From assembly GCA_000004985.1 (NCBI GenBank), contig GG738923.1: a stretch of DNA of 64,000 nucleotides, one strand, 5' to 3'. Of this stretch, positions 4,034 through 40,254 are shown one piece after another. Under the pieces are notes generated by a model. That model made no database searches. It saw only the letters and a program-made list of their open reading frames with translations, and had not been told where the DNA came from. A program made the translations under genes and the position numbers. The stretch comes from Naegleria gruberi (lineage: Eukaryota). The stretch's first letter is position 1. The number at the start of each line of letters is the position of its first letter.

Positions 4034-4055
4034 TCAACAACAACAACAACAACAA

Positions 4056-5392: not shown

Positions 5393-5489
5393 TTTGCCAT
5401 TCATATCATAATGGAAAGTATTAGAATGTTATTTAAATCACACACGAAAGAACTGTTCAATTCAACAATATCAAAAAAAACAAAGTAAA

Positions 5490-7437: not shown

Positions 7438-7510
7438 TGCTGACCGACGGGATCGAACCGGCGACCAATGGCTTATTAGACCAACGCTCTACCGACTGAG
7501 CTACGCCAGC
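7438..7510 (-). tRNA. tRNA-Ile (anticodon AAU).
   Basis: Reverse complement reads GCTGGCGTAGCTCAGTCGGTAGAGCGTTGGTCTAATAAGCCATTGGTCGCCGGTTCGATCCCGTCGGTCA. It has a canonical D-arm (GCTC/GAGC), anticodon loop CTAATAA and T-loop GGTTCGATCC. One mismatch in the acceptor stem (G7-G66) and one in the T-stem suggest either a variant or a slight boundary error. Coordinates are +/-2. Confidence 0.7.
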
Positions 7511-8735: not shown

Positions 8736-8823
8736 TCCGATGAGACGGAATCGAACCGCCGACCACAGGATTACAGTTTTTCTTGCTACAGTCCCATGCT
8801 CTACCAGCTGAGCTATCATCGGT
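8736..8823 (-). tRNA. tRNA-Tyr (anticodon GUA) with an intron of about 14 nt.
   Basis: Reverse complement: CCGATGATAGCTCAGCTGGTAGAGCATGGGACTGTAG[caagaaaaactgta]ATCCTGTGGTCGGCGGTTCGATTCCGTCTCATCGGA. The acceptor stem CCGATGA/TCATCGG is perfect, the anticodon loop is CTGTAGA after intron removal, and the T-loop is GGTTCGATTCC. The intron lies 3' of anticodon position 37, as in eukaryotic tRNA-Tyr. Confidence 0.8.
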
Positions 8824-17524: not shown

Positions 17525-18494
17525 TTGATAGATCACGATAAAGATAATAGAATAGAAATGACAAAGATTGAATATCCAAATTTGATGGAGGACTCTATTG
17601 TTTATAATATTCAATATTTTATGGGAAAGGATTATGTGTATTTAGTGGACAAAAAAAATGGGACTGTTGGATCTTTTTCTCTCAATTCAGGCCAATTGTT
17701 AGTTAACTATTATTCAGATCATAGAGGAATCAGAAAGTTTATCACTGGACCTGTTTCTTCTTGTCATGTCGTGCTGACCTATGATGGAACTATTTTTGAG
17801 AATGGAAAGGAGGTTGTTTTTTTTTCAACTGATCCACAACCGAATATTTTGAGAGCTGCATGTTGTGGAAGAGGATCAATTCTGGCTTCTTCTCATGATC
17901 TTTATGCAAGAGGAGATGATAATGTATTCTTTGCGTTTTCAGAAAAGTTTGGAGACTACAATCACAATGTTTCAGCAACAAAGTTTGTACATATTGCTAA
18001 ATTTGAACACGAAATTAGAGATATCCAATGTGGATACTTTTTTTCTGTAGTTCTTTTGCATAATAATGAATTATTGGCATGTGGCTATAATGGCTTGAAT
18101 CAATCCTCTTGGGATTCTTCCTATGGTGAGATTAAACAATTTACCAAAATTCAATACTCGTTCGGTTATATTGAGAGATTTGGCTGTTCTTCAAGAGGTA
18201 CTTGGGTTGTTAGTGGTGAGTATTTTGATGTTCTTTTTCTTATCTTTTTAAGGTGATGAGGTTACAATGGTAGGAGAGGTTGTTGAACTTTTTACAACCT
18301 TAGTTTCAAATACAGGAGTTCCAAAAATCATAAAGTTTCATCTGGAGGACTTTGATTGTGATACATTGATGAATTGTGGATGGCACTACGTGATGTACAA
18401 CCAAAACCCAAAGAAGAGTAACTATTTCAAAGAAAGACTTCATACCATGGTTGAATTGGAACTAATTACTGACCTTGGTTTCATTTGCCAATAA
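17525..18494 (+). CDS. RCC1-like (beta-propeller repeat) protein. Two exons: 17525..18215 and 18253..18494; intron 18216..18252.
   Basis: Blade-like motifs ILASSHDLYARGDDN, VVLLHNNELLACGYNGLNQSS and RGTWVVSG. GTGAGT donor and TTTAAG acceptor (37-nt intron) join in phase to GDEVTMVGEVVELF...GFICQ*. Paralogous to 32519..33862. Confidence 0.55.
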
Positions 18495-18886
18495 GGCAAC
18501 TGGAGGAAATACATTGAAGGAATCGGTTTATTCCTTAAGCACAGCATGTGTCTCTGCCAAGTTTTTAACTTGAGGAAAACTAAGGAAGTCTGGAATTTCA
18601 ATGCACTTAAAAATAGTTTCTTAACAAAACAGAATATTTGTTGAAAAGTCTGTCGCTGGTAAGAGTGAGTTTATTCAAGAATTGGAAGATCAATTTGATT
18701 CTCAAACTCATTTGACTAAGTATAACTGATGCATAACTGTTAAAAGATCCATAGGGTGAGTCAACTAATTGCCAAATGATGATTTGAAGATTAACAAATT
18801 TTAAAATTAAGGTATGAGCAATCGATCTCTTATGCACCAATTTGTTTATTAAGGCGAATTAAGGAATGATATTTATCTTTATGTAA

Positions 18887-18957
18887 TCGGGCGTGGTATA
18901 GTGGTAGCATTCCAGACTGTCACTCTGGCGACCCGGGTTCAATTCCCGGCGTTCGAG
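18887..18957 (+). tRNA. tRNA-Asp (anticodon GUC), copy 1.
   Basis: TCGGGCGTGGTATAGTGGTAGCATTCCAGACTGTCACTCTGGCGACCCGGGTTCAATTCCCGGCGTTCGAG. Acceptor stem with 2 G-U pairs, Asp-type GUAU D-stem, anticodon stem CCAGA/TCTGG with loop CTGTCAC, and T-arm CCGGG-TTCAATT-CCCGG. Confidence 0.75.
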
Positions 18958-19318
18958 TTCAATTTTATGTAGTTTTTGAAAATTTATCTTGGAGTTTTGT
19001 ATCGAAGTTTGGACATCATTTTTCTATTTTAAATATGTGTGAAAAATGTCACGAAGCATGTTTGAAACTTTTGTAGTGAGAATATGGAGAGAGTGGATAC
19101 AATATCATTCATAGAAAGCCTAATGTGTTGTTTAGGTGGTATTGTTGTGTTCTATTAATAATAATTGAAATTAAGGTATGTACCATTTGTTTGTATTGAT
19201 TTAAATTTATTGAGTTATTAGTGTTGATATATAGTTATAGTAAACAATTAAGAAAACTTGAAAGATTCAGATCAGAATTGTAACACTTGTTAGTGATTGA
19301 GTTTCTTAGTAAAAAAAA

Positions 19319-20563
19319 ATGCGAAACAATAAAGAGGGGAAAGTTAGATTTTTTCTTTGTGATTTTAAACTTCCTTCCAGTGATGATAATTCCACTCAAA
19401 TATTAAATTGGTTAAAAATCAAATTTGGCCAATTAAAATTTTCATCATTTAATTGTTCATCAATAAGAGATTTTAAATTTTGTTCCGATAATTTATTGGA
19501 AAGAATTGATAGGATGGGATTTGAAAAACCATCCTATGTGCATAGGCAGTGTATTTTTCCAATGATTCGTTCTCATGAGAGTCAAGATTATTTATTCGAA
19601 AATTGTGGTGAAGGAACAGATCGGATTGTTTCGTATGTGATTGGAATTATTGAAAGAAGATATCGAATGAGGAATGAAAAGAATGGAACGACCATTGTGA
19701 TTGGAAATGGATGGCAATGGGCATATACTGTTAGATATTTGTTAAAATCTTTAGGAGGAGATGATTTGAAAGTTTGTTTGTGTTTGGAAGGATTCAGGGC
19801 AAGTACTTTTCAAGGAAATGAGGATGTGATTGTTGGAATTTGTAACAATGTGAACAATCTTGTCAATTCTGGGTCTCTAAAAGCAAAGGATGTAAATTTA
19901 TTGATTATTGATCAAGCTAATCATTTGATTTTTGATTTAGATTGTGGTTTACATATACTGATGTGGAATTTTAATTGTAAAGTTTGTTGGTTTTGTCTAA
20001 CTGATTGTCTGAAGGAAAATCCTCTGAGAGATCCCATCAAGATTCAAATATTGAAAGATGGAACAGATTATCCTGATCTGAGAGCTTCTTACTCTAAGAA
20101 TTTTTACATTGATGTAGAAATTGAAGACTACAAATACGAAACTATCAGTGATTTATTCGATATTTTGGATGGTCTTCGAGCAGTAGTGTACTGTGAATCA
20201 GATGAGAAAGCTAAGGCAATTTGTGAAAAATTGCAAGATCGGTTTCTTGTAGCATGTTTACACAGAGGCCTTGGAGAAACACAAATTGAGGAAATTAGAC
20301 AAGATTTTAATTGGGCAAAGGTTAGATTTTTATTTACAACAGATCATTTCTCTAAACTTGAATATCATCCAGTCTTGGTGATAAACTATGATTTACCATG
20401 GCAAAATGAAAAGTATGCACTTCGACAAATCACATCAAGGTTTAGAAATACAGCAACTATCAGCTTGATACGACACGAAGACGTTATTAAGATTAGAGAA
20501 ATTGAGAAATTTTATTTCATTGAAATTCAAGAATGTCCGTATGCCATTCTCGATTACCTTTGA
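19319..20563 (+). CDS. eIF4A-like DEAD-box helicase paralog with degenerate catalytic motifs (putative pseudo-helicase).
   Basis: 414-aa ORF colinear with eIF4A. RMGFEKPSYVHRQCIFPMIRSHESQDYLFENCGEGTDR corresponds to GFEKPSAIQQRAI...AQSGTGKT, with the Q-motif kept and the Walker A GKT lost. LIIDQANHL corresponds to VLDEADEML (DEAD lost). VLVINYDLPWQNEKYALRQITSRFRN corresponds to LVINYDLP.N.E.YIHRIGRGGR (motif VI lost). Domain 2 core (AVVYCESDEKAKAICEKL...FLFTTDHFSK) is retained. Confidence 0.75.
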   Translation: MRNNKEGKVRFFLCDFKLPSSDDNSTQILNWLKIKFGQLKFSSFNCSSIRDFKFCSDNLLERIDRMGFEKPSYVHRQCIFPMIRSHESQDYLFENCGEGTDRIVSYVIGIIERRYRMRNEKNGTTIVIGNGWQWAYTVRYLLKSLGGDDLKVCLCLEGFRASTFQGNEDVIVGICNNVNNLVNSGSLKAKDVNLLIIDQANHLIFDLDCGLHILMWNFNCKVCWFCLTDCLKENPLRDPIKIQILKDGTDYPDLRASYSKNFYIDVEIEDYKYETISDLFDILDGLRAVVYCESDEKAKAICEKLQDRFLVACLHRGLGETQIEEIRQDFNWAKVRFLFTTDHFSKLEYHPVLVINYDLPWQNEKYALRQITSRFRNTATISLIRHEDVIKIREIEKFYFIEIQECPYAILDYL

Positions 20564-20716
20564 TGAATTTCGAATGAATAGAAAGACAAGAAAAGGATAT
20601 CCTTCTTTGAAAAGAATACTGCTGATATCTTCAATTTTGGATATTAATTTATACATATTAATTATTACATAGAAATTTTCCTTCAATTCATGAATTTCAA
20701 TTTGGGAAATAGAAAA

Positions 20717-21853
20717 CTAAAAGTAATTGTTAACTGTAAGGGAACTGACCTCAGGTGCTGTGAGTGCCTTAGTGAAAATCATTACATTAGCAATATATCC
20801 AGTATAGTAATAAGTTCCAGCATTGTGTCCACCAATGGTCAACTTTCCATCACTCAAATTCTTGGAGGCAATTGAAGTTGCACTGGTCTTGTATAATGAT
20901 CCGTCAATATAGAGATCAGTACCATCAGTTCTAAAAACAAATACTAAATGTCTCCAAACATCGGTTGCAAATAGGGTTCCATCAGTTACAAAAGGTGTAG
21001 TAAACTTGTCATCATAAAAACTAAACCCTTTGGCAGAAGCAACGTTGAAGAAAATGTAATTACCATTAGTACTGAAAGCCATTGCAACACCTCCATAAGG
21101 GCTCTTAAGCCACAATGAAAAGCTGTTGGAAACTGTAAGATTGACATTCACAGTAGAAGCGAGACCATTCTTCTTTCCATCGAAATAAACTGATTTACCA
21201 CCTGGGAATGGTGAATCATTGGAAAAGACTGGATTTGAAGAAGCACCTTGATTTGGATTGTTAACCAAGTGGAGAGAACCAACACTATCAGCGAAGGTAT
21301 TATTGAAATAGTAAGCATGGGCAAGATATGGAGTCATTGGTGCTGTGAAAAAGGAGGAACAAGAGGCTCCAATATATGGTTTTGTACAAGTGCAATTATT
21401 AGGAGCAATACATGAACCGTGTCCAGAGCAAACCGAAGCATTATTAGCAGCCAATCCAAAACATACTGGGACACAGTTAGGATAATTGGTAAAACCATCT
21501 TGGCATGCATTACAATCAGAACCATTGTAAGTGGAACACTGGGAATTAATGACACGAATTTCAGCATCTAATAAGGCTATTGCTGAAGCAACTTTGGACA
21601 ATTGCTTGCTTCTCAAATCAATAATGGTCTTTAAAGATGGTGCTGATGAAGAATTACTAGTAAAGAAGGTGCTGTTTAACAAGTTAATAGTATTCTCTAA
21701 CTTGGTTTTGGTGCATGCCACAGCATCTCTTTCCTTTTGTAAAGAAGCTAAATAATCCCTCAATCCACCTGTTGTTTGGTGAAGAGTAAGTGTTATATTG
21801 GCTAGTAAGAGGAAAACTACTAGCAGCGCGCAAAACCTTAGCAATTGAATCAT
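20717..21853 (-). CDS. Secreted protein with signal peptide, EGF-like Cys-rich module and a concanavalin-A-like lectin / LamG (Laminin_G_3-type) domain.
   Basis: N-terminal MIQLLRFCALLVVFLLLANITLT signal. Cys pattern CSTYNGSDCNACQDGFTNYPNCVPVC...CSGHGSCIAPNNCTCTKPYIGASC (EGF-like). C-terminal WLKSPYGGVAMAF...VWRHLVFVFRTDGTDLYIDGSLY...LTIGGHNAGTYYYTGYIANVMIFTKALTAPEV matches the LamG/pentraxin jelly-roll consensus (W.H.....DG...lYvDG......iG......f.G.i..v.i...aLs..E). Confidence 0.75.
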   Translation of the reverse strand: MIQLLRFCALLVVFLLLANITLTLHQTTGGLRDYLASLQKERDAVACTKTKLENTINLLNSTFFTSNSSSAPSLKTIIDLRSKQLSKVASAIALLDAEIRVINSQCSTYNGSDCNACQDGFTNYPNCVPVCFGLAANNASVCSGHGSCIAPNNCTCTKPYIGASCSSFFTAPMTPYLAHAYYFNNTFADSVGSLHLVNNPNQGASSNPVFSNDSPFPGGKSVYFDGKKNGLASTVNVNLTVSNSFSLWLKSPYGGVAMAFSTNGNYIFFNVASAKGFSFYDDKFTTPFVTDGTLFATDVWRHLVFVFRTDGTDLYIDGSLYKTSATSIASKNLSDGKLTIGGHNAGTYYYTGYIANVMIFTKALTAPEVSSLTVNNYF

Positions 21854-22382
21854 GTTGTTGTTGGTTGGTATTAAGGAAGATCGTACTTAATCCTGTGAGG
21901 AGTTTTTTTTGAAAACAGTGGTCCTTTTGATTGGTGCTTGTTTGGTCGCATCTTCGTTTACAGTAAAATCCACTGTAACGGATAGTTTTTTAAGGAACTG
22001 TATTGGAATGGATTGTTGAGGCTTTCAATATTGTAGATTATTGTTTATACGACTTGATAAATTGCAACCAAATCAATATGGTTGGATATTAAGCAGCGGA
22101 TATCGACTTTGAATGTGATTTTGTTGAATAAAATTGCATGAAGTTCGATTGTATGTTGTCCCTAGTGTCAGGACGGTCCTTTATTTTGTCGATCTAAAAT
22201 GAGGAAATCGCTCCCCACAAAACAAAAAACAGATGGACCAATTTAAAATAAATAATTTTGGTTTGCTGTTTTGTCTAACAAAATCAAGATTGTTTGGACC
22301 AACATAACATTAATGATTGTATGTTGTCTAGTCTGATGGTAACAGTAAAAATGGAGCCTGACATCAAAATAATAATGATAAT

Positions 22383-23336
22383 TTAAATGGAAAACTTAAT
22401 GTATTCGTGAAATTGAGCAGATGATCCAGGATAAAAATCTTGTTGAAATTGTAAATGTTTTGCTTCTTCTTGAATTGTAACAGAAGATTTAATTGTTTGA
22501 AGAGATTTGATAACATCACTTTTCGTTGGTTGTGATAGGGCATTAAGACTAATATTGAAACTATTATTGGTAGCCATTAAGGCATTTCTAATAATGTTCA
22601 TCTGTGAATCCCTTACTACACACATTAAATCCGCATATGAATATCCATCACACATTGTGGAAATCTCCTCAATTTCATCATCTTGTATTGAACTATTTCT
22701 AAATGCATCTCTCAATATCTCAATCCTTTTCTCCTTATCTGGAAGAGGAATGTGAAATCTCCTCTTAAATATTTTCCTCACAGCTGGATTAATATTCCAA
22801 GGTGTTGAGCTTATAACCAAAACAATTACCCTACTCTCACGATCATACATGGATTGGAGAAATTCTTTCAAAACTGAAATTTCCTTCTCTGAATTACTAT
22901 TCCAATCACAAAATTCCAAATCATCGATTACTATAATACTTGGTTGACTAAGTTTTGCTTTTTCAAATACTTCTTGCATTGAACGTTTAAAATCATGATC
23001 TTGAGTGTAGATTACTTCTGCTTTTATCCTTTCATCGGTGAGTATTTTCTTAGTTAAATAGGTTTTACCCTTTTCCGATCAAATCAAAATATTAAATTTA
23101 ATATTACTCTCCAAATGATCATGATATTTGCTTACCACTCCTGGACATCCGTGAATTAATATTTCATTCCAAACTTTTGCATCAGGATATTCGAGAGGGA
23201 GAAGAATACTCTCAAGAAGTTCTTCTTCAATGCTAAGTTTTTTCTGTTGCAGCTGTTGTTCTTCTTCGCTAATAGAGGAAATTGTGGAATTGTGTTGTAA
23301 CATTTTTTTGTTGTAATGTTGATTGCATTCGTACAC
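22383..23336 (-). CDS. Short AAA+ ATPase (classic AAA clade) with non-canonical Walker B and sensor-1. Two exons: 23136..23336 and 22383..23069; intron 23070..23135. 295 aa.
   Basis: Exon 1 ends ...LIHGCPGV at GTAAGC. After a 66-nt intron, exon 2 continues GKTYLTKKIL, reconstituting Walker A GCPGVGKT. Walker B is IIVIDDLEF (DD instead of DE). Sensor-1 region VIVLVISSTPWNINPA lacks the Asn. Arg-finger region RKIFKRRFHIPLPDKEKRIEIL and the helical lid ISTMCDGYSYADLMCVVRD are AAA-typical. Confidence 0.7.
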
Positions 23337-23411
23337 ATGATTGTTTATTAATAGTTTGAAAGGTCGACTTGATTAAATGATGGAACAATGTAGTAGCACC
23401 ATCGAGTGGAA

Positions 23412-24767
23412 TTATTCAATGGAGGTCTTGAAATTATAAATGTGATTGAATTTGACTTCTAATAAGCTTAGTTCTTTGATTGCGTTTTGGATCAATGAAT
23501 CAATGAGTTGAGTTTTTTCATTGGATTTCTTCTTGCATAGTTTCTTATGAGCTGATTTTGCTTCCTCTAAACATTGAATTCTATCCTTGAGAGCTCTTGG
23601 TATCCTTTCTTGCTTAATATACGAATGGGCACGATCATTTCTATCATTAATGATGGATTGAACATCTGAAAGCTTGAATAATTCTCTGAATTTCCTAACT
23701 CTGGAATTTTCGTCATCCACCATTTTGTCTTCGCATGCTAATACTGACCTAATACAATCGGTGAATATCTTATTGATGTGATTGTATTGATCCTCGATTG
23801 AAATCTTTTGTTTCTCTAAGCAAAGGGTACTTTTAAATGCTTCGAATCTTCCAAGACAAGTAATAAGCTGTTTACACAAATCAAAATTACCAGAATCAAA
23901 CAGTTTAAAGAATACCTTAATAATATCAATATCTCCTTTCAGAATTGCTTTAGCAACAAGGAGAGTGGCTGCATTCTCGGAGGGTGGGGCTGATTTCTCC
24001 CTGTGTTTCAGTACAATCCCATTCACAGTTACAGGATCCTCCATGGTAATGGTTGAAATCAAGCGAATCATCAAATCATCGTCGTTACAAATATGAGGAA
24101 TTATTTCTTTACATTTGAAAGTATTATTTTCCAATGCGGCAACCAAGTCCAGTTCTGTAAAATTAGTAGTTGATTGATCTGGTTGTTGAATCTCCTTATC
24201 AGCTGCCCATGCTGTCTCTTTTGTATCTTTTACATGTGGTTTTGTTGTTGTGCGTTTCTTCTCCTTTCCAATAGGCTTTGGGGCTGTAGTGGAACTCAAA
24301 TTAGCAACCACAGTTTTCACTACTGTAGTATTTGATGAAGAAGCAGATTGATTCGAAACTGGTAAAGGTATTCTTGCAAGTACAGTTTTGACTTGGTCAA
24401 CAATATTTGTATTTGGAATATCTTCGACAAGGTTGACAAATTCTCCAATACTATATTTGAAACCTTGATGACCGTGTAATTTCTTCTTTTCATAAGAAAT
24501 ATCAACATCATAATAGAATTTCTGTTCAAAAACATGATACAAATCAACTCTTTCATCAAACTCCCAACAATGAGAATAAAGTAATTTACACCAACTCTTC
24601 AAACATGTTCTCTTCACCCACATTCTTTCCAAGTCTGTCGATCTTTCAACATGATATTCAAGCAGCCTCTCACTCCTATCCACTTCACAATTTCCTCTGT
24701 AAATATAATGATATTTGTGATCATCTAAATAGACTCTTGCACCCAAGTTATCTGGATAAAATATCCN
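23412..24767 (-). CDS. Copy 1 of the unknown 517-aa protein gene; 5' end runs into N-gap 24768..24816 (partial).
   Basis: ORF 23412..24746 corresponds to residues about 74-517 of the complete copy. It has a one-residue indel (KRTTTKPHV vs KRTTKPHV). Confidence 0.5.
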   Translation of the reverse strand, partial: XIFYPDNLGARVYLDDHKYHYIYRGNCEVDRSERLLEYHVERSTDLERMWVKRTCLKSWCKLLYSHCWEFDERVDLYHVFEQKFYYDVDISYEKKKLHGHQGFKYSIGEFVNLVEDIPNTNIVDQVKTVLARIPLPVSNQSASSSNTTVVKTVVANLSSTTAPKPIGKEKKRTTTKPHVKDTKETAWAADKEIQQPDQSTTNFTELDLVAALENNTFKCKEIIPHICNDDDLMIRLISTITMEDPVTVNGIVLKHREKSAPPSENAATLLVAKAILKGDIDIIKVFFKLFDSGNFDLCKQLITCLGRFEAFKSTLCLEKQKISIEDQYNHINKIFTDCIRSVLACEDKMVDDENSRVRKFRELFKLSDVQSIINDRNDRAHSYIKQERIPRALKDRIQCLEEAKSAHKKLCKKKSNEKTQLIDSLIQNAIKELSLLEVKFNHIYNFKTSIE

Positions 24768-25218
24768 NNNNNNNNNNNNNNNNNNNNNNNNNNNNNNNNN
24801 NNNNNNNNNNNNNNNNTTGCCAATAAGGCAACTGGAGGAAATACATTGAAGGAATCGGTTTATTCCTTAAGCACAGCATGTGTCTCTGCCAAGTTTTTAA
24901 CTTGAGGAAAACTAAGGAAGTCTGGAATTTCAATGCACTTAAAAATAGTTTCTTAACAAAACAGAATATTTGTTGAAAAGTCTGTCGCTGGTAAGAGTGA
25001 GTTTATTCAAGAATTGGAAGATCAATTTGATTCTCAAACTCATTTGACTAAGTATAACTGATGCATAACTGTTAAAAGATCCATAGGGTGAGTCAACTAA
25101 TTGCCAAATGATGATTTGAAGATTAACAAATTTTAAAATTAAGGTATGAGCAATCGATCTCTTATGCACCAATTTGTTTATTAAGGCGAATTAAGGAATG
25201 ATATTTATCTTTATGTAA

Positions 25219-25289
25219 TCGGGCGTGGTATAGTGGTAGCATTCCAGACTGTCACTCTGGCGACCCGGGTTCAATTCCCGGCGTTCGAG
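25219..25289 (+). tRNA. tRNA-Asp (anticodon GUC), copy 2 (identical, in duplication unit 2).
   Basis: Same 71-nt sequence 6332 bp downstream of copy 1. Confidence 0.75.
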
Positions 25290-25650
25290 TTCAATTTTAT
25301 GTAGTTTTTGAAAATTTATCTTGGAGTTTTGTATCGAAGTTTGGACATCATTTTTCTATTTTAAATATGTGTGAAAAATGTCACGAAGCATGTTTGAAAC
25401 TTTTGTAGTGAGAATATGGAGAGAGTGGATACAATATCATTCATAGAAAGCCTAATGTGTTGTTTAGGTGGTATTGTTGTGTTCTATTAATAATAATTGA
25501 AATTAAGGTATGTACCATTTGTTTGTATTGATTTAAATTTATTGAGTTATTAGTGTTGATATATAGTTATAGTAAACAATTAAGAAAACTTGAAAGATTC
25601 AGATCAGAATTGTAACACTTGTTAGTGATTGAGTTTCTTAGTAAAAAAAA

Positions 25651-25914
25651 ATGCGAAACAATAAAGAGGGGAAAGTTAGATTTTTTCTTTGTGATTTTAA
25701 ACTTCCTTCCAGTGATGATAATTCCACTCAAATATTAAATTGGTTAAAAATCAAATTTGGCCAATTAAAATTTTCATCATTTAATTGTTCATCAATAAGA
25801 GATTTTAAATTTTGTTCCGATAATTTATTGGAAAGAATTGATAGGATGGGATTTGAAAAACCATCCTATGTGCATAGGCAGTGTATTTTTCCAATGATTC
25901 GTTCTCATGAGAGT
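25651..25914 (+). CDS. Second copy of the eIF4A-like degenerate helicase gene, 5' part only (truncated by N-gap 25915..27305).
   Basis: Identical N-terminal 88 codons (MRNNKEGKVRFFLCDFKL...MIRSHES) before the gap. Confidence 0.6.
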
Positions 25915-27305
25915 NNNNNNNNNNNNNNNNNNNNNNNNNNNNNNNNNNNNNNNNNNNNNNNNNNNNNNNNNNNNNNNNNNNNNNNNNNNNNNNNNNNNNN
26001 NNNNNNNNNNNNNNNNNNNNNNNNNNNNNNNNNNNNNNNNNNNNNNNNNNNNNNNNNNNNNNNNNNNNNNNNNNNNNNNNNNNNNNNNNNNNNNNNNNNN
26101 NNNNNNNNNNNNNNNNNNNNNNNNNNNNNNNNNNNNNNNNNNNNNNNNNNNNNNNNNNNNNNNNNNNNNNNNNNNNNNNNNNNNNNNNNNNNNNNNNNNN
26201 NNNNNNNNNNNNNNNNNNNNNNNNNNNNNNNNNNNNNNNNNNNNNNNNNNNNNNNNNNNNNNNNNNNNNNNNNNNNNNNNNNNNNNNNNNNNNNNNNNNN
26301 NNNNNNNNNNNNNNNNNNNNNNNNNNNNNNNNNNNNNNNNNNNNNNNNNNNNNNNNNNNNNNNNNNNNNNNNNNNNNNNNNNNNNNNNNNNNNNNNNNNN
26401 NNNNNNNNNNNNNNNNNNNNNNNNNNNNNNNNNNNNNNNNNNNNNNNNNNNNNNNNNNNNNNNNNNNNNNNNNNNNNNNNNNNNNNNNNNNNNNNNNNNN
26501 NNNNNNNNNNNNNNNNNNNNNNNNNNNNNNNNNNNNNNNNNNNNNNNNNNNNNNNNNNNNNNNNNNNNNNNNNNNNNNNNNNNNNNNNNNNNNNNNNNNN
26601 NNNNNNNNNNNNNNNNNNNNNNNNNNNNNNNNNNNNNNNNNNNNNNNNNNNNNNNNNNNNNNNNNNNNNNNNNNNNNNNNNNNNNNNNNNNNNNNNNNNN
26701 NNNNNNNNNNNNNNNNNNNNNNNNNNNNNNNNNNNNNNNNNNNNNNNNNNNNNNNNNNNNNNNNNNNNNNNNNNNNNNNNNNNNNNNNNNNNNNNNNNNN
26801 NNNNNNNNNNNNNNNNNNNNNNNNNNNNNNNNNNNNNNNNNNNNNNNNNNNNNNNNNNNNNNNNNNNNNNNNNNNNNNNNNNNNNNNNNNNNNNNNNNNN
26901 NNNNNNNNNNNNNNNNNNNNNNNNNNNNNNNNNNNNNNNNNNNNNNNNNNNNNNNNNNNNNNNNNNNNNNNNNNNNNNNNNNNNNNNNNNNNNNNNNNNN
27001 NNNNNNNNNNNNNNNNNNNNNNNNNNNNNNNNNNNNNNNNNNNNNNNNNNNNNNNNNNNNNNNNNNNNNNNNNNNNNNNNNNNNNNNNNNNNNNNNNNNN
27101 NNNNNNNNNNNNNNNNNNNNNNNNNNNNNNNNNNNNNNNNNNNNNNNNNNNNNNNNNNNNNNNNNNNNNNNNNNNNNNNNNNNNNNNNNNNNNNNNNNNN
27201 NNNNNNNNNNNNNNNNNNNNNNNNNNNNNNNNNNNNNNNNNNNNNNNNNNNNNNNNNNNNNNNNNNNNNNNNNNNNNNNNNNNNNNNNNNNNNNNNNNNN
27301 NNNNN
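25915..27305. other. Assembly gap (1391 N) inside duplication unit 2. Smaller gaps at 1906..2184 and 24768..24816.
   Basis: Runs of N. The ORFs drawn across them in the six-frame track are artefacts. Confidence 1.
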
Positions 27306-28188
27306 AATAGGGTTCATCAGTTACAAAAGGTGTAGTAAACTTGTCATCATAAAAACTAAACCCTTTGGCAGAAGCAACGTTGAAGAAAATGTAATTACCA
27401 TTAGTACTGAAAGCCATTGCAACACCTCCATAAGGGCTCTTAAGCCACAATGAAAAGCTGTTGGAAACTGTAAGATTGACTGTCACAGTAGAAGCGAGAC
27501 CATTCTTCTTTCCATCGAAATAAACTGATTTACCACCTGGGAATGGTGAATCATTGGAAAAGACTGGATTTGAAGAAGCACCTTGATTTGGATTGTTAAT
27601 CAAGTGGAGAGAACCAGCACTATCAGCGAAAGTATTATTGAAATAGTAAGCATGGGCAAGATATGGAGTCATTGGTGCTGTGAAAAAGGAGGAACAAGAG
27701 GCTCCAATATATGGTTTTGTACAAGTGCAATTATTAGGAGCAATACATGAACCGTGTCCAGAGCAAACCGAAGCATTATTAGCAGCCAATCCAAAACATA
27801 CTGGGACACAGTTAGGATAATTGGTAAAACCATCTTGGCATGTATTACAATCAGAACCATTGTAAGTGGAACACTGGGAATTAATGACACGAATTTCAGC
27901 ATCTAATAAGGCTATTGCTGAAGCAACTTTGGACAATTGCTTGCTTCTCAAATCAATAATGGTCTTTAAAGATGGTGCTGATGAAGAATTACTAGTAAAG
28001 AAGGTGCTGTTTAACAAGTTAATAGTATTCTCTAACTTGGTTTTGGTGCATGCCACAGCATCTCTTTCCTTTTGTAAAGAAGCTAAATAATCCCTCAATC
28101 CACCTGTTGTTTGTTGAAGAGTAAGTGTTATATTGGCTAGTAAGAGGAAAACTACTAGCAGCGCGCAAAACCTTAGCAATTGAATCAT
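27306..28188 (-). CDS. Second copy of the EGF/LamG secreted protein gene; N-terminal about 294 codons present, 3' end lost in N-gap.
   Basis: About 99% identical to 20962..21853. Amino-acid differences seen: H25Q, A116T, V/A and V/I changes, N/T. Confidence 0.6.
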
Positions 28189-28717
28189 GTTGTTGTTGGT
28201 TGGTATTAAGGAAGATCGTACTTAATCCTGTGAGGAGTTTTTTTTGAAAACAGTGGTCCTTTTGATTGGTGCTTGTTTGGTCGCATCTTCGTTTACAGTA
28301 AAATCCACTGTAACGGATAGTTTTTTAAGGAACTGTATTGGAATGGATTGTTGAGGCTTTCAATATTGTAGATTATTGTTTATACGACTTGATAAATTGC
28401 AACCAAATCAATATGGTTGGATATTAAGCAGCGGATATCGACTTTGAATGTGATTTTGTTGAATAAAATTGCATGAAGTTCGATTGTATGTTGTCCCTAG
28501 TGTCAGGACGGTCCTTTATTTTGTCGATCTAAAATGAGGAAATCGCTCCCCACAAAACAAAAAACAGATGGACCAATTTAAAATAAATAATTTTGGTTTG
28601 CTGTTTTGTCTAACAAAATCAAGATTGTTTGGACCAACATAACATTAATGATTGTATGTTGTCTAGTCTGATGGTAACAGTAAAAATGGAGCCTGACATC
28701 AAAATAATAATGATAAT

Positions 28718-29671
28718 TTAAATGGAAAACTTAATGTATTCGTGAAATTGAGCAGATGATCCAGGATAAAAATCTTGTTGAAATTGTAAATGTTTTGCTT
28801 CTTCTTGAATTGTAACAGAAGATTTAATTGTTTGAAGAGATTTGATAACATCACTTTTCGTTGGTTGTGATAGGGCATTAAGACTAATATTGAAACTATT
28901 ATTGGTAGCCATTAAGGCATTTCTAATAATGTTCATCTGTGAATCCCTTACTACACACATTAAATCCGCATATGAATATCCATCACATTTTGTGGAAATC
29001 TCCTCAATTTCATCATCTTGTATTGAACTATTTCTAAATGCATCTCTCAATATCTCAATCCTTTTCTCCTTATCTGGAAGAGGAATGTGAAATCTCCTCT
29101 TAAATATTTTCCTCACAGCTGGATTAATATTCCAAGGTGTTGAGCTTATAACCAAAACAATTACCCTACTCTCACGATCATACATGGATTGGAGAAATTC
29201 TTTCAAAACTGAAATTTCCTTCTCTGAATTACTATTCCAATCACAAAATTCCAAATCATCGATTACTATAATACTTGGTTGACTAAGTTTTGCTTTTTCA
29301 AATACTTCTTGCATTGAACGTTTAAAATCATGATCTTGAGTGTAGATTACTTCTGCTTTTATCCTTTCATCGGTGAGTATTTTCTTAGTTAAATAGGTTT
29401 TACCCTTTTCCGATCAAATCAAAATATTAAATTTAATATTACTCTCCAAATGATCGTGATATTTGCTTACCACTCCTGGACATCCGTGAATTAATATTTC
29501 ATTCCAAACTTTTGCATCAGGATATTCGAGAGGGAGAAGAATACTCTCAAGAAGTTCTTCTTCAATGCTAAGTTTTTTCTGTTGCAGCTGTTGTTCTTCT
29601 TCACTCACAGAGGAAATTGTGGAATTGTGTTGTAACATTTTTTTGTTGTAATGTTGATTGCATTCGTACAC
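28718..29671 (-). CDS. Second copy of the short AAA+ ATPase gene (exons 29471..29671 and 28718..29404).
   Basis: Identical structure at offset +6335. Two amino-acid differences (I/V in SSISEEE vs SSVSEEE; M/K in ISTMCDGY vs ISTKCDGY). Confidence 0.7.
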
Positions 29672-29746
29672 ATGATTGTTTATTAATAGTTTGAAAGGTC
29701 GACTTGATTAAATGATGGAACAATGTAGTAGCACCATCGAGTGGAA

Positions 29747-31300
29747 TTATTCAATGGAGGTCTTGAAATTATAAATGTGATTGAATTTGACTTCTAATAA
29801 GCTTAGTTCTTTGATTGCGTTTTGGATCAATGAATCAATGAGTTGAGTTTTTTCATTGGATTTCTTCTTGCATAGTTTCTTATGAGCTGATTTTGCTTCC
29901 TCTAAACATTGAATTCTATCCTTGAGAGCTCTTGGTATCCTTTCTTGCTTAATATACGAATGGGCACGATCATTTCTATCATTAATGATGGATTGAACAT
30001 CTGAAAGCTTGAATAATTCTCTGAATTTCCTAACTCTGGAATTTTCGTCATCCACCATTTTGTCTTCGCATGCTAATACTGACCTAATACAATCGGTGAA
30101 TATCTTATTGATGTGATTGTATTGATCCTCGATTGAAATCTTTTGTTTCTCTAAGCAAAGGGTACTTTTAAATGCTTCGAATCTTCCAAGACAAGTAATA
30201 AGCTGTTTACACAAATCAAAATTACCAGAATCAAACAGCTTAAAGAATACCTTAATTATATCAATATCTCCTTTCAGAATTGCTTTAGCAACAAGGAGAG
30301 TGGCTGCATTCTCGGAGGGTGGGGCTGATTTCTCCCTGTGTTTCAGTACAATCCCATTCACAGTTACAGGATCCTCCATGGTAATGGTTGAAATCAAGCG
30401 AATCATCAAATCATCGTCGTTACAAATATGAGGAATTATTTCTTTACATTTGAAAGTATTATTTTCCAATGCGGCAACCAAGTCCAGTTCTGTAAAATTA
30501 GTAGTTGATTGATCTGGTTGTTGAATCTCCTTATCAGCTGCCCATGCTGTCTCTTTCGTATCTTTTACATGTGGTTTTGTAGTGCGTTTCTTCTCCTTTC
30601 CAATAGGCTTTGGGGCTGTAGTGGAACTCAAATTAGCAACCACAGTTTTCACTACTGTAGTATTTGATGAAGAAGCAGATTGATTCGAAACTGGTAAAGG
30701 TATTCTTGCAAGTACAGTTTTGACTTGGTCAACAATATTTGTATTTGGAATATCTTCGACAAGGTTGACAAATTCTCCAATACTATATTTGAAACCTTGA
30801 TGACCGTGTAATTTCTTCTTTTCATAAGAAATATCAACATCATAATAGAATTTCTGTTCAAAAACATGATACAAATCAACTCTTTCATCAAACTCCCAAC
30901 AATGAGAATAAAGTAATTTACACCAACTCTTCAAACATGTTCTCTTCACCCACATTCTTTCCAAGTCTGTCGATCTTTCAACATGATATTCAAGCAGCCT
31001 CTCACTCCTATCCACTTCACAATTTCCTCTGTAAATATAATGATATTTGTGATCATCTAAATAGACTCTTGCACCCAAGTTATCTGGATTAAAATTATCC
31101 GAAATGACTTCATAAACAGATAATAATTGATTCTTGAATGGAAAATCTACTTTGATTTCTCTCGACCATTTTTCAACAACTGAATCTCCCTTGAGCATGT
31201 AAACAATAAAGGCTTTGTTGTAGAGGACATCCATCATGTACTGCTTTTTAGGATCATAATTCGGAATGTGTGTTTGTGCTTCAGAACGGAATTGAGACAT
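29747..31300 (-). CDS. Hypothetical 517-aa protein, no recognisable domain (complete copy). It lies 75 bp upstream of the AAA+ ATPase gene, co-oriented.
   Basis: Single ORF, not low-complexity. The N-terminal half is rich in conserved-looking aromatic/charged residues (RVYLDDHKYHYIYRGNCEVDRSERLLEYHVERSTDLERMWVKRTCLKSWCKLLYSHCWEFDE). The C-terminal half is alpha-helical and Lys/Glu-rich. Confidence 0.6.
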   Translation of the reverse strand: MSQFRSEAQTHIPNYDPKKQYMMDVLYNKAFIVYMLKGDSVVEKWSREIKVDFPFKNQLLSVYEVISDNFNPDNLGARVYLDDHKYHYIYRGNCEVDRSERLLEYHVERSTDLERMWVKRTCLKSWCKLLYSHCWEFDERVDLYHVFEQKFYYDVDISYEKKKLHGHQGFKYSIGEFVNLVEDIPNTNIVDQVKTVLARIPLPVSNQSASSSNTTVVKTVVANLSSTTAPKPIGKEKKRTTKPHVKDTKETAWAADKEIQQPDQSTTNFTELDLVAALENNTFKCKEIIPHICNDDDLMIRLISTITMEDPVTVNGIVLKHREKSAPPSENAATLLVAKAILKGDIDIIKVFFKLFDSGNFDLCKQLITCLGRFEAFKSTLCLEKQKISIEDQYNHINKIFTDCIRSVLACEDKMVDDENSRVRKFRELFKLSDVQSIINDRNDRAHSYIKQERIPRALKDRIQCLEEAKSAHKKLCKKKSNEKTQLIDSLIQNAIKELSLLEVKFNHIYNFKTSIE

Positions 31301-31437: not shown

Positions 31438-32349
31438 TTATTCATTTTGTATTATTAAGATTTTCAGTTTTTTCATGTTAATTAGGTGTTGAACGCCTTC
31501 ATTTTCCAGAAAGTGATTATTTCTAATACAAAGCTCAGTTAAATTTTCTAGTTGACTGATTGCTTTGGCACCTTCATCCGTTATATAATTCGAGCTAACA
31601 TGCAGAATACGCAATTGTTTCATTTCACTAATATATTTGGCTCCTTCATTACCAATTTCATTTTCGCTAATGTTCAGCTCACTTAATTGTTTTAATTGAC
31701 TGATGAACTGAGCTCCTTCTATTCCGATATAGTTTTTTGTAATAGCTAATTTTCTTAATTCAGATAGTTCTCCAATAAATTTAGAGCCCTCTTTTCCAAT
31801 TCCACAGAAAACAACTTTTAATTCTCTTAATTTTTTCAGTTGACCAATTAACTTTGCTCCCTCCACTCCAATATAATTATAACCAATGTCAAGAAAAGTC
31901 AAATGACTAAGTTGACTAATAATATAAACTCCATTAATTCCAATACTATTACTACTAATATCAAGTTCAGTTAATTGTTTCAATTCACTCAAATATTTTG
32001 CTGCTTTATCGTCAATAAAATTGGAAGAAATGTACAATTTTGTTAATTGTGACATTTTCCCAAGAACTACCAAGAATTTATATTGATTTAAAACCCCATA
32101 ACCAACTTTAATCTCATAAATACGATCTAAGTATTTACTTTCCATCAATGACTTTAGTTTGGTAATTCGATCATTAAATTCAATTAAAAGTTTCGAATAC
32201 ATTCCAATAATTCTTAACCATTGTTTAGAAATTAAACAACAATTCAGCAAGATGAATTTACCATCATCAATAAAAGATATTATCTCACAACACACATCAT
32301 CAGAAAAAAATTGAGCTGCAGCAACATTCCGAAAAGTAATTTCCTTCAT
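31438..32349 (-). CDS. F-box-like / RNI-type LRR protein (paralog of 7712..8404).
   Basis: FFSDDVCCEIISFIDDGKFILLNCCLISKQWLRII followed by 28-aa LRRs (ELKQLTELDISSNSIGINGV, GAKLIGQLKKLRELKV, GAQFISQLKQLSELNISENEIGNEGAKYISEMKQLRIL). Confidence 0.65.
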   Translation of the reverse strand: MKEITFRNVAAAQFFSDDVCCEIISFIDDGKFILLNCCLISKQWLRIIGMYSKLLIEFNDRITKLKSLMESKYLDRIYEIKVGYGVLNQYKFLVVLGKMSQLTKLYISSNFIDDKAAKYLSELKQLTELDISSNSIGINGVYIISQLSHLTFLDIGYNYIGVEGAKLIGQLKKLRELKVVFCGIGKEGSKFIGELSELRKLAITKNYIGIEGAQFISQLKQLSELNISENEIGNEGAKYISEMKQLRILHVSSNYITDEGAKAISQLENLTELCIRNNHFLENEGVQHLINMKKLKILIIQNE

Positions 32350-37899: not shown

Positions 37900-40254
37900 T
37901 TATTCTTTATTTTCCTGTTTTTTAGCCAGTCTCTTGTTCAATCCATTTCCAGAAATTGTTGTGAAGAAATTACTATCAATTACACTAATTTCCTGCGTTC
38001 CCCTACAAAGTGTTGTTCTGATTTTGAATTTCCCTTCCTTTTGAGAGGAGAAACCGAGCCAAACCTCTTCAATAATCCTTTGTTTGTATTCATTCTTGAC
38101 TTGAACCTTTTTCAAGTTCTTTAGATACTGCAATTTTTCTTGGCCTTTCTTTAATTTGATCAAATCAAATTTCAATGTGTAAACCTCTTGATCCTTACTA
38201 TTTGGGCTTAGTTTTGGCGATGATTCAAATTCAGGTATAATCAAATCTACCTTAATGGCCTCCACATACTTATCATAAACTATTCCATCCGCAACATTCT
38301 GAATAGTTAAATATTCAGAGCTATTTGGAGCTTCTTCAAGAAGAATTTGAGCTTTCTCCAGTTGTTTAACGTTGGTCATCTTATTCGAAGTATTGTAACT
38401 AATAATTTTGAAATCATCTTGTTTTTTAGATTGATTCTTTCCAAAATTAGTTTCTTGAGTAAACTCAATTTTTCTAATATTTGTTGGTGATCCACTACTA
38501 CTATTCGATTGGAAAGCATCTGATTGTTTTCGTTTTTTAGACGAAACACTTGTTGAAGAAACTAAAGGTGAACCAGAAGGAGTGGAAGGTGATGAAAAAC
38601 CCATATTAGTGTTATTAGTACTAAGTACTGGGAAGTGTATTGGAGTGGTTGGAGTACTTCCTGTACTATTGCTTTTCCTCGATGATGATGATTTACTTCT
38701 CTTCTCACTCTTGACTGTTACAATGTTTGATGGTTGAATTGATGGTTGTGATGAGGATGGTGTGGAAATAGGAGTAGTATTAGAAATTTGTGGTATTACT
38801 GTTGCAGTTTGTGGTATTGCTGGAGGAGGTGATTGTCGAGCATCCAGTGTACATGATACTTGTCCACGTTCTTGAAGAAATTGCAGAATAGTTGGTGAAT
38901 TAGTTTGACAAGTGTCATTATTCGAATTACTAGTATTAGTTGTGGAATAAGTAGTAGTATTAGTTGTGGTCATTGGTGTTGTAGTCGTTGGAGTGGAAAT
39001 AGGAGTAGAAATTGGAGTAATATTATTATTATTGGAAACTACATTAATTGGTGAAATAGTTATTCCTGCTGTGGTTGTTGAAGGTTTAGGAAGTTGTTGA
39101 TAATTTTCATCAATTACAAATCCATTAGTTTTAGCTTTATCAGATCCATCCGATGAAGTAGAAACATTATTAATATCATGATGATGATTGACCAAATTTG
39201 AATTATTTTGATGATATGAATTATTAATTGGATAGGGTGGAGATGATGGAATTGAGTGATAATAGGGTGGATAATGTTGTGGATGTGGTGGTGGATAGTT
39301 TGGATATCCATGATGATGATAATAAGGAGGATATTGATGAGTATTATAATTATTTGAATAATGATGATGAGGAGGATATGGAGGAAGAATATTATTATTG
39401 ACTGCACTACTCGACATTACTTGAGAACTTGCGTGCATAGTTGGAGAAGTTGGTTGACTAGAAGGTGAAACTATTGCCGAATTATTTGGTTGTGTTGATT
39501 GTGGAGGAGGTGGCTGAGGATAATATGATAATGGAGGTGGAGGAAAGTTTGTATATCCATAACCAGTAGGAATTGGTTGTGTTGCTATTGGACATGTTGA
39601 AGGATTTTGTGTTAAATAGGATTGTGGAAGTGGTGGCAATGGAGGATGTGGATGATGATTGTACATGTCAATATTTCTTTCAATAATTAAATTATTAATA
39701 TTTGAAGTGCTAGTTGATGCCTGATGAAGTATCTGGTTTACTGCATCATCACATGTAGAGTCATTACCCAAATCTGATAGTAAAACATTGTCATTCAAAT
39801 TGGTATTATTATTAATATTAGTATTGACTTCCAATAGTTGTCTCAATTCTTCAATAAAATTGGGATTATTTTCTGATATATCTGGCAGTAACATCCTATT
39901 GTTGCCTCTCACACTTTCTTCAAGGTTAGTTGAAGTGGATGTGTTGTTGTTGATTGAGGAGGAGATAAAGTATTGTTCTGCTTGTTCTGTTTGTTGATGG
40001 ATTAACGATTGTTGGAGTGTGAAAAGGGTTACTTGATCTGGTTGAGTAGTTGTCATATTATTTTGATTGGCAACAGTTGCGAGTATTTGTTGAAACAACT
40101 CATCAGGAACGCCTTGTTGGGAGTTATGATTGTTTTCGGATGGTATCGAATCAATATTGTTGAATGAAATATCTTCTTGGTTCGTGTTCTGGTCAAAGAA
40201 ATTGTTATTATTGTTTTGCATGTGCATGTAATAGTATTGAAAGAGTTCAATCAT
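37900..40254 (-). CDS. Low-complexity Gln/Asn/Pro/His/Tyr-rich protein with a conserved-looking 200-aa C-terminal region (unknown function).
   Basis: 784-aa ORF. Prion-like tracts (PPYPPHHHYSNNYNTHQYPPYYHHHGYPNYPPPHPQHYPPYY). Non-repetitive C-terminus (KIEFTQETNFG...VWLGFSSQKEGKFKIRTTLCRGTQEISVIDSNFF). Confidence 0.55.
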   Translation of the reverse strand: MIELFQYYYMHMQNNNNNFFDQNTNQEDISFNNIDSIPSENNHNSQQGVPDELFQQILATVANQNNMTTTQPDQVTLFTLQQSLIHQQTEQAEQYFISSSINNNTSTSTNLEESVRGNNRMLLPDISENNPNFIEELRQLLEVNTNINNNTNLNDNVLLSDLGNDSTCDDAVNQILHQASTSTSNINNLIIERNIDMYNHHPHPPLPPLPQSYLTQNPSTCPIATQPIPTGYGYTNFPPPPLSYYPQPPPPQSTQPNNSAIVSPSSQPTSPTMHASSQVMSSSAVNNNILPPYPPHHHYSNNYNTHQYPPYYHHHGYPNYPPPHPQHYPPYYHSIPSSPPYPINNSYHQNNSNLVNHHHDINNVSTSSDGSDKAKTNGFVIDENYQQLPKPSTTTAGITISPINVVSNNNNITPISTPISTPTTTTPMTTTNTTTYSTTNTSNSNNDTCQTNSPTILQFLQERGQVSCTLDARQSPPPAIPQTATVIPQISNTTPISTPSSSQPSIQPSNIVTVKSEKRSKSSSSRKSNSTGSTPTTPIHFPVLSTNNTNMGFSSPSTPSGSPLVSSTSVSSKKRKQSDAFQSNSSSGSPTNIRKIEFTQETNFGKNQSKKQDDFKIISYNTSNKMTNVKQLEKAQILLEEAPNSSEYLTIQNVADGIVYDKYVEAIKVDLIIPEFESSPKLSPNSKDQEVYTLKFDLIKLKKGQEKLQYLKNLKKVQVKNEYKQRIIEEVWLGFSSQKEGKFKIRTTLCRGTQEISVIDSNFFTTISGNGLNKRLAKKQENKE

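What the first reader, a model, noticed from the sequence alone, without database searches (positions are those of the whole stretch)
29747..31300. 517-aa protein with no recognisable domain, part of the duplicated cassette
Non-repetitive ORF with a Trp/Tyr/His/Cys-rich N-terminal half (…RVYLDDHKYHYIYRGNCEVDRSERLLEYHVERSTDLERMWVKRTCLKSWCKLLYSHCWEFDERVDLYHVFEQKFYYDVD…) and a helical charged C-terminal half. None of the family signatures I can recall match. It is the most clearly novel coding element in the window.
Basis: inference. Interest (0 to 1): 0.5.

Follow-up and report, generated by a model that had tools for sequence, protein, structure and literature searches.

The report
Annotated Naegleria orphan protein, function unknown
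The 517-residue ORF is a real, selectively constrained gene of the amoeboflagellate Naegleria gruberi that is already deposited as an uncharacterised "predicted protein"; it has one diverged paralogue and no detectable relative or known domain elsewhere, so it is an ordinary lineage-restricted orphan.

Summary
The ORF at 29747..31300 (-) is there exactly as described: 517 aa, ATG to stop, non-repetitive. It is identical to GenBank XP_002669731.1 / UniProt D2W1W0 (NAEGRDRAFT_54005, "predicted protein") of Naegleria gruberi. The organism is therefore a heterolobosean, not an amoebozoan.

Pfam, NCBIfam, PHROGs, PADLOC, PDB sequences (single sequence and profile), a profile search of 1.84 billion representative proteins and three contig scans found only two relatives. 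One is a 99% identical strain variant. The other is a 40% identical paralogue (NAEGRDRAFT_70540).

The gene is under purifying selection (dN/dS about 0.13 between strains). It has two conserved blocks, residues about 18-202 and 271-500, joined by a poorly conserved basic Ser/Thr/Pro/Lys linker. AlphaFold2 failed on the N-terminal block (pLDDT below 50). It gave a moderate-confidence helical bundle for the C-terminal block, which matches only generic bundles.

The "duplicated cassette" is a 6.3-kb direct repeat, 99.5% identical, whose junction is exactly a 50-N scaffold gap. It is probably two haplotypes placed in tandem. The second ORF copy is cut by that gap.

My best guess at function is a soluble adaptor or scaffold, held at low confidence. 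About half of the other large ORFs tested in this window also lack Pfam hits, so this one is not unusual.

The parts
29747..31300 (-). Complete intron-less CDS of 517 aa plus stop. It equals NAEGRDRAFT_54005 / XP_002669731.1 / D2W1W0_NAEGR.
   Evidence: ORF. Sequence is identical to P0124. The paralogue aligns end to end and shares the MSQ start. dN/dS against the strain variant on L002 is 0.13.
30695..31249 (-). Conserved N-terminal block, residues about 18-202, rich in Tyr/His/Trp. Seven Cys/His positions are invariant between the paralogues: H87, C94, H106, C127, H133, C134, H145. The fold was not resolved.
   Evidence: 48% identity to the paralogue over residues 18-200. Invariant columns. 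AF2 pLDDT 35-45, with only low-confidence strands.
30491..30694 (-). Variable linker, residues about 203-270. It is basic (pI 9.7), rich in Ser/Thr/Pro/Lys and probably disordered.
   Evidence: 26% identity to the paralogue, with gaps. AF2 pLDDT 23-26 and no secondary structure. A 3-nt in-frame indel (TT/TTT Thr run) differs among the copies and the strain variant.
29801..30490 (-). Conserved C-terminal all-helical block, residues about 271-500. Motifs include LCKQ..CLGR, FTDC.R and MVDDENSRV.
29750..29800 (-). C-terminal tail, residues 501-517. It lies within a heptad-like amphipathic stretch that begins near residue 482, and it is absent from the paralogue.
   Evidence: Heptad scan. The paralogue ends at the equivalent of residue about 501.
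23412..24766 (-). Second copy of the ORF, residues about 68-517, 99.6% identical over the aligned residues 70-517. It is truncated by the N gap and not by a mutation.
   Evidence: There is no in-frame stop up to the gap.
24767..24816 (.). 50-N scaffold gap lying exactly at the junction of the two 6.3-kb repeat copies.
18485..31098 (.). Two head-to-tail copies of a 6.28-kb unit (18485-24766 and 24817-31098). Each carries tRNA-Asp, a DEAD-box-like helicase gene, an EGF/LamG gene, an AAA gene and most of the target ORF. Copy 2 also contains a 1391-N gap (25915-27305).
   Evidence: 4891 comparable bases, 22 mismatches (0.45%), 2 indels. tRNAs. Pfam results.

Best explanation
Shown: this is a real, intact, single-exon protein-coding gene of Naegleria gruberi, NAEGRDRAFT_54005. 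It belongs to a two-member family found so far only in N. gruberi and a closely related strain. It encodes a soluble 60-kDa protein with no signal peptide and no transmembrane segment. Two conserved blocks are separated by a fast-evolving basic Ser/Thr/Pro/Lys linker.

Inferred: the C-terminal block folds as an antiparallel helical bundle. The N-terminal block is a compact, partly beta-stranded domain whose many invariant aromatic, charged and Cys/His residues form a binding surface.

The most likely mode of action is therefore a non-enzymatic adaptor or scaffold. The helical domain would mediate protein-protein association, the N-domain would bind a partner or ligand, and the flexible linker would act as a tether and possible regulatory or targeting segment.

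The neighbouring 'second copy' is most likely an assembly artefact: two haplotypes of a heterozygous diploid scaffolded in tandem.
For: Identity and reality of the gene:
- The sequence exactly matches XP_002669731.1.
- A strain variant on an independent metagenome contig has the same neighbours, LRR - ORF - AAA.
- There are 11 synonymous against 6 non-synonymous codon differences; dN 0.0049, dS 0.036.
- The 40% identical paralogue is colinear over 96% of the length.

Architecture:
- Block-wise identity to the paralogue is 48%, 26% and 43%.
- AF2 predicts helices from 271 to 516 with pLDDT 50-80.
- The maximum Kyte-Doolittle 19-residue mean is 1.47 and the N-terminus is polar.

No enzyme or other family signal appeared in any profile search.

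Artefact reading of the duplication:
- The junction coincides with the 50-N gap.
- The copies diverge by 0.45%.
- The last 9 bases before the gap are noisy.
- Naegleria is described as mainly a heterozygous diploid (PMC9928731).
Against: The adaptor function is an inference from architecture alone. No expression, localisation or interaction data were found. The N-domain structure prediction failed (pLDDT 35-45), so 'binding domain' is not distinguished from 'enzyme'. The density of invariant Asp/Glu/Arg/His/Cys residues (DRSE, HVER, SHCWE.DER) would also fit a catalytic or metal site. The helical-bundle model rests on an alignment with only about two effective sequences.
Confidence: 0.4

Rival explanations
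1. The N-terminal block is an enzyme with a Cys/His-based active site, for example a circularly permuted papain-like (NlpC/P60, LRAT/PLAAT-type) hydrolase or acyltransferase, or a small nuclease. The helical domain would then be a regulatory or targeting module.
For: H87, C94, H106, C127, H133, C134 and H145, plus many acidic and basic residues, are invariant between paralogues that are only 48% identical in this block. By eye, 'HYIYRG ... EYHVE ... SHCWEF' recalls the H-box and NCEHF motifs of PLAAT/LRAT proteins. That resemblance comes from memory and is a lead only.
Against: hhalign of the N-domain profile against PDB-verified PLAAT3 gives probability 0.6%, and it aligns a different Cys. 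Scores against I-TevI GIY-YIG and PLAAT3 are no better than those against reversed sequences. There is no Pfam LRAT, NLPC_P60, peptidase or nuclease hit even at E<=10 on sub-segments. The His-to-Cys spacing of 28 residues is far shorter than in PLAAT3 (78).
Confidence: 0.15
2. It is a nuclear nucleic-acid- or chromatin-binding protein. The aromatic N-domain would be a Tudor/SH3-like barrel or a metal-stabilised module, and the basic linker would carry a nuclear localisation signal.
For: The linker is basic, with lysine clusters in both paralogues (KEKKR in this protein, ARKKQKV in the paralogue) and pI 9.7. Low-confidence AF2 strands around residues 77-119 and the pattern G-x-x-V-x-L ... Y-x-G ... 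V-E loosely resemble Tudor strands. This too is from memory and is a lead only.
Against: hhalign against the SMN, 53BP1, PHF1, FMRP-Agenet and HP1 chromo sequences gives probabilities of 0.8% or less, equal to the reversed-sequence controls. There are no Pfam royal-family hits. The basic clusters are not positionally conserved. There is no classical CxxC or CxxH zinc spacing.
Confidence: 0.15
3. The 6.3-kb repeat is a genuine, very recent tandem duplication. If so, the genome carries one full and one 5'-truncated copy of the gene.
For: The copies are not identical: 22 substitutions and 2 indels in 4.9 kb.
Against: The only junction is hidden by a fixed 50-N gap, so no sequence supports it. The sequence degenerates in the last 9 bases before the gap, as at a contig end. 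Divergence of 0.45% is in the range expected for alleles. The 3-nt indel that distinguishes the copies also segregates in the independent strain, as expected of allelic variation.
Confidence: 0.3
4. The family was recently acquired from a virus or mobile element, which would explain its absence from other Naegleria species.
For: The distribution is restricted to N. gruberi even though N. lovaniensis and Willaertia magna proteins are in the searched database. There are two dispersed paralogues on different scaffolds.
Against: There was no hit in IMG/VR contigs, PHROGs or BFVD structures (best E 0.012, TM 0.2 or less). GC content matches the surrounding genes. The flanking genes are ordinary and their order is kept in a second strain. 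No terminal repeats were found around the gene.
Confidence: 0.07
5. The ORF is spurious or a decaying pseudogene.
For: No transcript or protein evidence was retrieved.
Against: The open frame is 517 codons long in 33% GC DNA. A full-length paralogue at 40% identity shows block-wise conservation. Synonymous changes outnumber non-synonymous ones between strains.
Confidence: 0.03

Closest known systems
NAEGRDRAFT_70540 (XP_002674501.1, D2VNL2), the N. gruberi paralogue
   Same: It has the same length (519-523 aa), the same MSQ start and the same three-part architecture. It is 40% identical overall, with 48% in the N block and 43% in the C block, and all the Cys/His and charged motifs are shared.
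   Different: It lies on a different scaffold with different neighbours, next to an RGS-domain gene. The linker is unalignable. It lacks the C-terminal heptad-like tail. It is equally uncharacterised.
[not shown]
   Different: Sequence identity is 5-10%. The hits are functionally heterogeneous and include de novo designs. Foldseek found nothing below E 0.6. The model has mean pLDDT 41. This is a resemblance in shape only and does not indicate family membership.
Species-restricted genes of unknown function in Naegleria (pangenome study, PMC9928731)
   Same: That study reports hundreds of species-specific genes per Naegleria species, mostly of unknown function. This gene fits that class.
   Different: That paper does not name this gene. 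The class is defined by distribution, not by mechanism.
PLAAT/LRAT permuted NlpC/P60 enzymes
   Same: By eye only, a His-containing strand motif lies upstream of a Cys-x-x-Phe motif.
   Different: There is no statistical similarity, the spacing differs and there is no Pfam hit. It is not a member on present evidence.

Membership tests
N. gruberi predicted protein NAEGRDRAFT_54005 (deposited gene model) | Identical amino-acid sequence | tested here: met
   P0124 (XP_002669731.1, 517 aa) is the same sequence as the window ORF. It is a cluster member at 90% or more with P0001.
Any Pfam-A / NCBIfam / PHROGs / PADLOC family | Score at or above the family threshold, or at least a weak hit shared by both paralogues | tested here: not met
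   The best Pfam hit was 13.7 bits against a cut-off of 27.8. No sub-threshold hit is shared by the two paralogues on 10 sub-segments. The other libraries gave E>=0.037 or nothing.
Any protein with a solved structure (sequence level) | phmmer or hmmsearch E<=0.001 against PDB chains | tested here: not met
   No hits for the full length or the full-length profile. The N-domain profile gave ferritin at E 0.13 and NRF2 at E 0.21, which is chance level.
LRAT/PLAAT (permuted NlpC/P60) | Profile similarity covering the H-box His, the second His and the NCEHF Cys in register | tested here: not met
   hhalign probability is 0.6%, the alignment is not in register, and the result is comparable to the reversed-sequence nulls. 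There is no PF04970 hit.
LRAT/PLAAT (permuted NlpC/P60) | Papain-like alpha+beta fold with Cys at a helix N-terminus facing His on a strand | tested here: inconclusive
   The N-domain models have pLDDT 35-45, which is too poor to judge.
Tudor / royal-family SH3-like barrels | Profile similarity to Tudor, Agenet or chromo domains | tested here: not met
   hhalign probabilities were 0.8% or less, the same as the reversed controls.
GIY-YIG nucleases | GIY...YIG...R...E motif set with profile similarity | tested here: not met
   hhalign probability was 0.3% against the I-TevI domain (sequence from memory); the reversed control scored 0.8%. There is no PF01541 hit.
Virus- or mobile-element-derived gene | Homologue in viral sequence or structure collections | tested here: not met

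The most novel reading that the evidence does not exclude
The two conserved blocks are previously unseen folds. On this reading the family is an innovation of the N. gruberi clade, with a new Cys/His- and acid-dependent activity, catalytic or metal-binding, in the N-terminal domain.
Probability: 0.15. Interest if true: 0.4.

Novelty: already known. Interest (0 to 1): 0.15.

Why it matters
It matters little as it stands. The gene has been in GenBank and UniProt since the 2010 N. gruberi genome as an uncharacterised predicted protein, and species-restricted genes of unknown function are common in Naegleria.

The work has three modest uses:
(i) It shows that the gene is real, constrained and has a paralogue, so it is a usable example of a taxonomically restricted two-domain family.
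(ii) It flags that this stretch of the reference scaffold probably contains a haplotype-in-tandem misassembly.
(iii) It flags that the neighbouring deposited model NAEGRDRAFT_75286 (710 aa) is a chimera spliced across two N gaps.

If the N-domain proved to be a new enzyme fold, it would be of moderate interest to protein-evolution specialists.

Tried and rejected
Searches that found nothing beyond the strain variant and the paralogue:
- Word-indexed homology search with the single sequence and with the alignment.
- Full HMMER profile search of 1.84e9 representative proteins.
- Degenerate-pattern scans of bacterial/archaeal genomes, JGI metagenomes and IMG/VR.
- A second metagenome scan with the invariant MVDDENSRV motif. 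It gave four 57%-GC contigs that match only the 9-mer. The one with a longer weak alignment is a bacterial subtilase.

Other approaches that led nowhere:
- Domain libraries and PDB sequence searches, including sub-segments and profiles, gave only chance-level hits.
- Three motif resemblances that I recalled by eye (LRAT/PLAAT, Tudor-like barrel, GIY-YIG) scored at the level of reversed-sequence controls and were dropped.
- Literature and supplement searches for the gene, protein and UniProt identifiers found no mention. The Naegleria differentiation microarray paper and the genome paper are not held.
- A tblastn of the protein against the window found no further copies.

Full report
OBSERVATION

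The ORF is present exactly as reported: 29747..31300 on the minus strand, ATG start, 517 codons plus stop, with the quoted peptide. The local GC content is about 33%. At that composition stop codons occur at roughly 7.5% of random codons, so an open frame of this length is not a chance event (about 4e-18 per start, by my arithmetic). The region holds no repeat beyond a 16-nt tandem.

The compositional description also holds. Residues 1-200 have Tyr 8.0%, His 4.0%, Trp 2.0% and Cys 2.0%. Residues 271-517 are Lys/Asp/Glu-rich with no Trp and are predicted helical throughout.

IDENTITY AND ORGANISM

The homology search returned only two clusters. An exact look-up of their members shows that the cluster of the 99% hit contains XP_002669731.1 / EFC36987.1 / D2W1W0_NAEGR. 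This is the 'predicted protein NAEGRDRAFT_54005' of Naegleria gruberi, 517 aa, and its sequence is the window ORF.

A conserved neighbour points the same way. The cysteine desulfurase at 55448-56971 has its best named hits in Naegleria lovaniensis (82%) and Willaertia magna (81%). The window is therefore the N. gruberi reference scaffold. The organism is a heterolobosean (Discoba), not an amoebozoan, and the gene has been deposited as an uncharacterised model.

IS IT A REAL GENE?

Yes, on three lines of evidence.

First, a strain variant (P0001, 518 aa) lies on an independent ENA metagenome contig, L002. There it has the same neighbours: F-box-like/LRR gene, then the ORF, then a two-exon AAA gene.

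Second, against that variant there are 11 synonymous and 6 non-synonymous codon differences plus one in-frame Thr codon. This gives dN 0.0049 and dS 0.036, a ratio of about 0.13.

Third, there is a second N. gruberi gene, NAEGRDRAFT_70540 (XP_002674501.1). It is represented by P0002 from the same metagenome. It is 40% identical and colinear over 96% of the length, and it shares the MSQ start.

Conservation is block-wise: 48% for residues 18-200, 26% with gaps for 201-270, and 43% for 271-500. The protein has no hydrophobic segment long enough for a membrane span (maximum Kyte-Doolittle 19-residue mean 1.47) and a polar N-terminus. It is therefore most likely soluble and intracellular.

SEARCH FOR RELATIVES AND DOMAINS

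- Pfam-A at E<=10 gave only a 13.7-bit FlaC_arch match, against a cut-off of 27.8.
- Ten sub-segments of the two paralogues gave no hit common to both.
- NCBIfam, PHROGs and PADLOC gave nothing meaningful.
- PDB sequences gave nothing for the single sequence or the full profile. The N-domain profile gave two chance-level hits, ferritin at E 0.13 and NRF2 at E 0.21.
- A HMMER profile of the family, run against 1.84 billion representative proteins with no word filter, found only the same two clusters. So did the alignment-seeded word search.
- Pattern-plus-tblastn scans of bacterial/archaeal genomes, JGI metagenomes and IMG/VR found no relative.
- A scan for the invariant MVDDENSRV nonamer found only unrelated high-GC bacterial contigs.

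N. lovaniensis and W. magna proteins are demonstrably in the searched collection. The family is therefore either confined to the N. gruberi lineage or too diverged elsewhere to be recognised.

STRUCTURE

With only about two effective sequences, AlphaFold2 gave mean pLDDT 41 for the full length. Residues 1-267 were below 50. Residues 271-516 formed 13 helices at pLDDT about 50-80. The N-domain run alone gave pLDDT 35.

Fold searches with the full model were uninformative:
- Foldseek against the PDB gave nothing below E 0.6.
- BFVD viral structures gave nothing, with E>=0.012 and TM 0.2 or less.
- The afdb50 library was not available.

The only structural statement I would make is that the C-terminal block is probably an up-down helical bundle.

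LEADS TESTED AND DROPPED

Reading the invariant residues by eye suggested three resemblances:
- the H-box and NCEHF motifs of permuted NlpC/P60 (PLAAT/LRAT) enzymes;
- a Tudor-like strand pattern;
- a GIY-YIG-like pattern.

I verified my PLAAT3 sequence against PDB entries and ran hhalign. The probability was 0.6% and the alignment was out of register. A small panel of PLAAT3, I-TevI, SMN, 53BP1, PHF1, FMRP and HP1 all scored 0.8% or less, indistinguishable from reversed-sequence controls. None of these assignments is supported. The shallow profile gives the test little power, so the fold-level question stays open.

THE 'DUPLICATED CASSETTE'

Positions 18485-24766 and 24817-31098 are two head-to-tail copies of a 6.28-kb unit. 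Over 4891 comparable bases they differ by 22 substitutions (0.45%) and two indels.

Several features point to an artefact:
- The junction between the copies is exactly a 50-N gap (24767-24816).
- The last nine bases before that gap are noisy.
- Copy 2 contains a further 1391-N gap.
- The first copy of the ORF (23412..24766) is open right up to the gap, so it is cut by the gap and not by mutation.
- The 3-nt indel that distinguishes the copies also segregates in the independent strain.

Naegleria is described as mainly a heterozygous diploid (PMC9928731). The simplest reading is that two haplotypes were scaffolded in tandem. I put this at about 0.7, against 0.3 for a genuine very recent duplication.

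One consequence is that the deposited 710-aa model NAEGRDRAFT_75286 is a chimera. It joins the first 283 residues of the EGF/LamG gene of copy 2 to residue 92 onward of the copy-1 ORF, across both gaps.

MECHANISM

What is shown: the protein is constrained, soluble and has two blocks joined by a variable basic linker.

What is inferred: the C-terminal block is a helical-bundle interaction domain, and the N-terminal block is a binding domain rich in invariant aromatic, charged and Cys/His residues.

My best guess is a lineage-specific adaptor or scaffold. I put the gene's reality and identity at about 0.95, the architecture at about 0.6 and the adaptor function at about 0.3. An enzymatic or metal-binding N-domain is a live alternative. 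No expression or localisation data could be found.

CONTEXT AND VERDICT

Of 29 other ORFs tested in this window, 14 have no Pfam hit. Several are larger than this one: 784, 922 and 575 aa. Species-restricted genes of unknown function number in the hundreds per Naegleria species (PMC9928731).

The finding is a correct observation of an ordinary, already-annotated orphan gene. Interest is low. The most useful by-products are the probable misassembly and the chimeric neighbouring gene model.

Noticed in passing
window 23412-28188 (-): The deposited model NAEGRDRAFT_75286 (XP_002669729.1, 710 aa) is a chimera. Its first 283 residues come from the EGF/Laminin_G_3 secreted-protein gene of repeat copy 2. 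These are spliced, across the 1391-N and 50-N gaps, to residue 92 onward of the copy-1 ORF.
   Followed up: partly
window 18887-18957 and 25219-25289 (+); 7438-7510 (-); 8736-8822 (-): tRNA-Asp(GTC) appears twice only because it lies inside the repeated 6.3-kb unit. There is also a tRNA-Ile(AAT). Rfam additionally calls an 87-nt tRNA that ARAGORN missed, probably because it contains an intron.
   Followed up: no
window 9014-10522 (-): A 502-aa ORF carries two SHOCT domains (PF09851, E 1.6e-16). To my knowledge this short domain is mostly seen in bacteria and archaea, so it is unusual in a eukaryotic nuclear scaffold.
   Followed up: no
window 28718-29671 (-), and copy at 22383-23336: The gene immediately downstream of the target is a short two-exon AAA ATPase (PF00004 plus AAA_lid_3). 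It has a katanin/Vps4-like 'RRFHIPLPDKEKRIEIL' segment. In the ORF as read, 'HGCPG' stands where a canonical Walker A would be expected. This may be a degenerate ATPase, or the motif may be completed after splicing.
   Followed up: no
window 31438-32349 (-): The upstream neighbour is an RNI-type LRR protein (LRR_6, E 3e-29). Its N-terminus reads like an F-box; that is my inference from the sequence. Strain contig L002 calls it as 432 aa, which suggests an intron or a longer 5' exon.
   Followed up: no
window 1-6000: The left end of the window has much lower GC (16-23%) than the rest (30-35%) and a 279-N gap (1906-2184). It also has several ORFs of 230-470 aa with no Pfam hit.
   Followed up: no
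window 37900-40254 (-), 61086-63854 (-), 59229-60956 (+), 46531-48039 (-), 45436-46500 (+): Five further large ORFs (784, 922, 575, 502 and 354 aa) also lack any Pfam domain. The target is therefore not uniquely 'domain-less' in this window.
   Followed up: partly
L001 and L002 (ENA ERZ929261, run ERR1078381, project PRJEB11402): A sample labelled as a metagenome contains contigs about 99% identical to N. gruberi NEG-M (dS 0.036 in the target gene). It therefore includes a closely related Naegleria strain and could serve as a second genome for population comparisons.
   Followed up: partly
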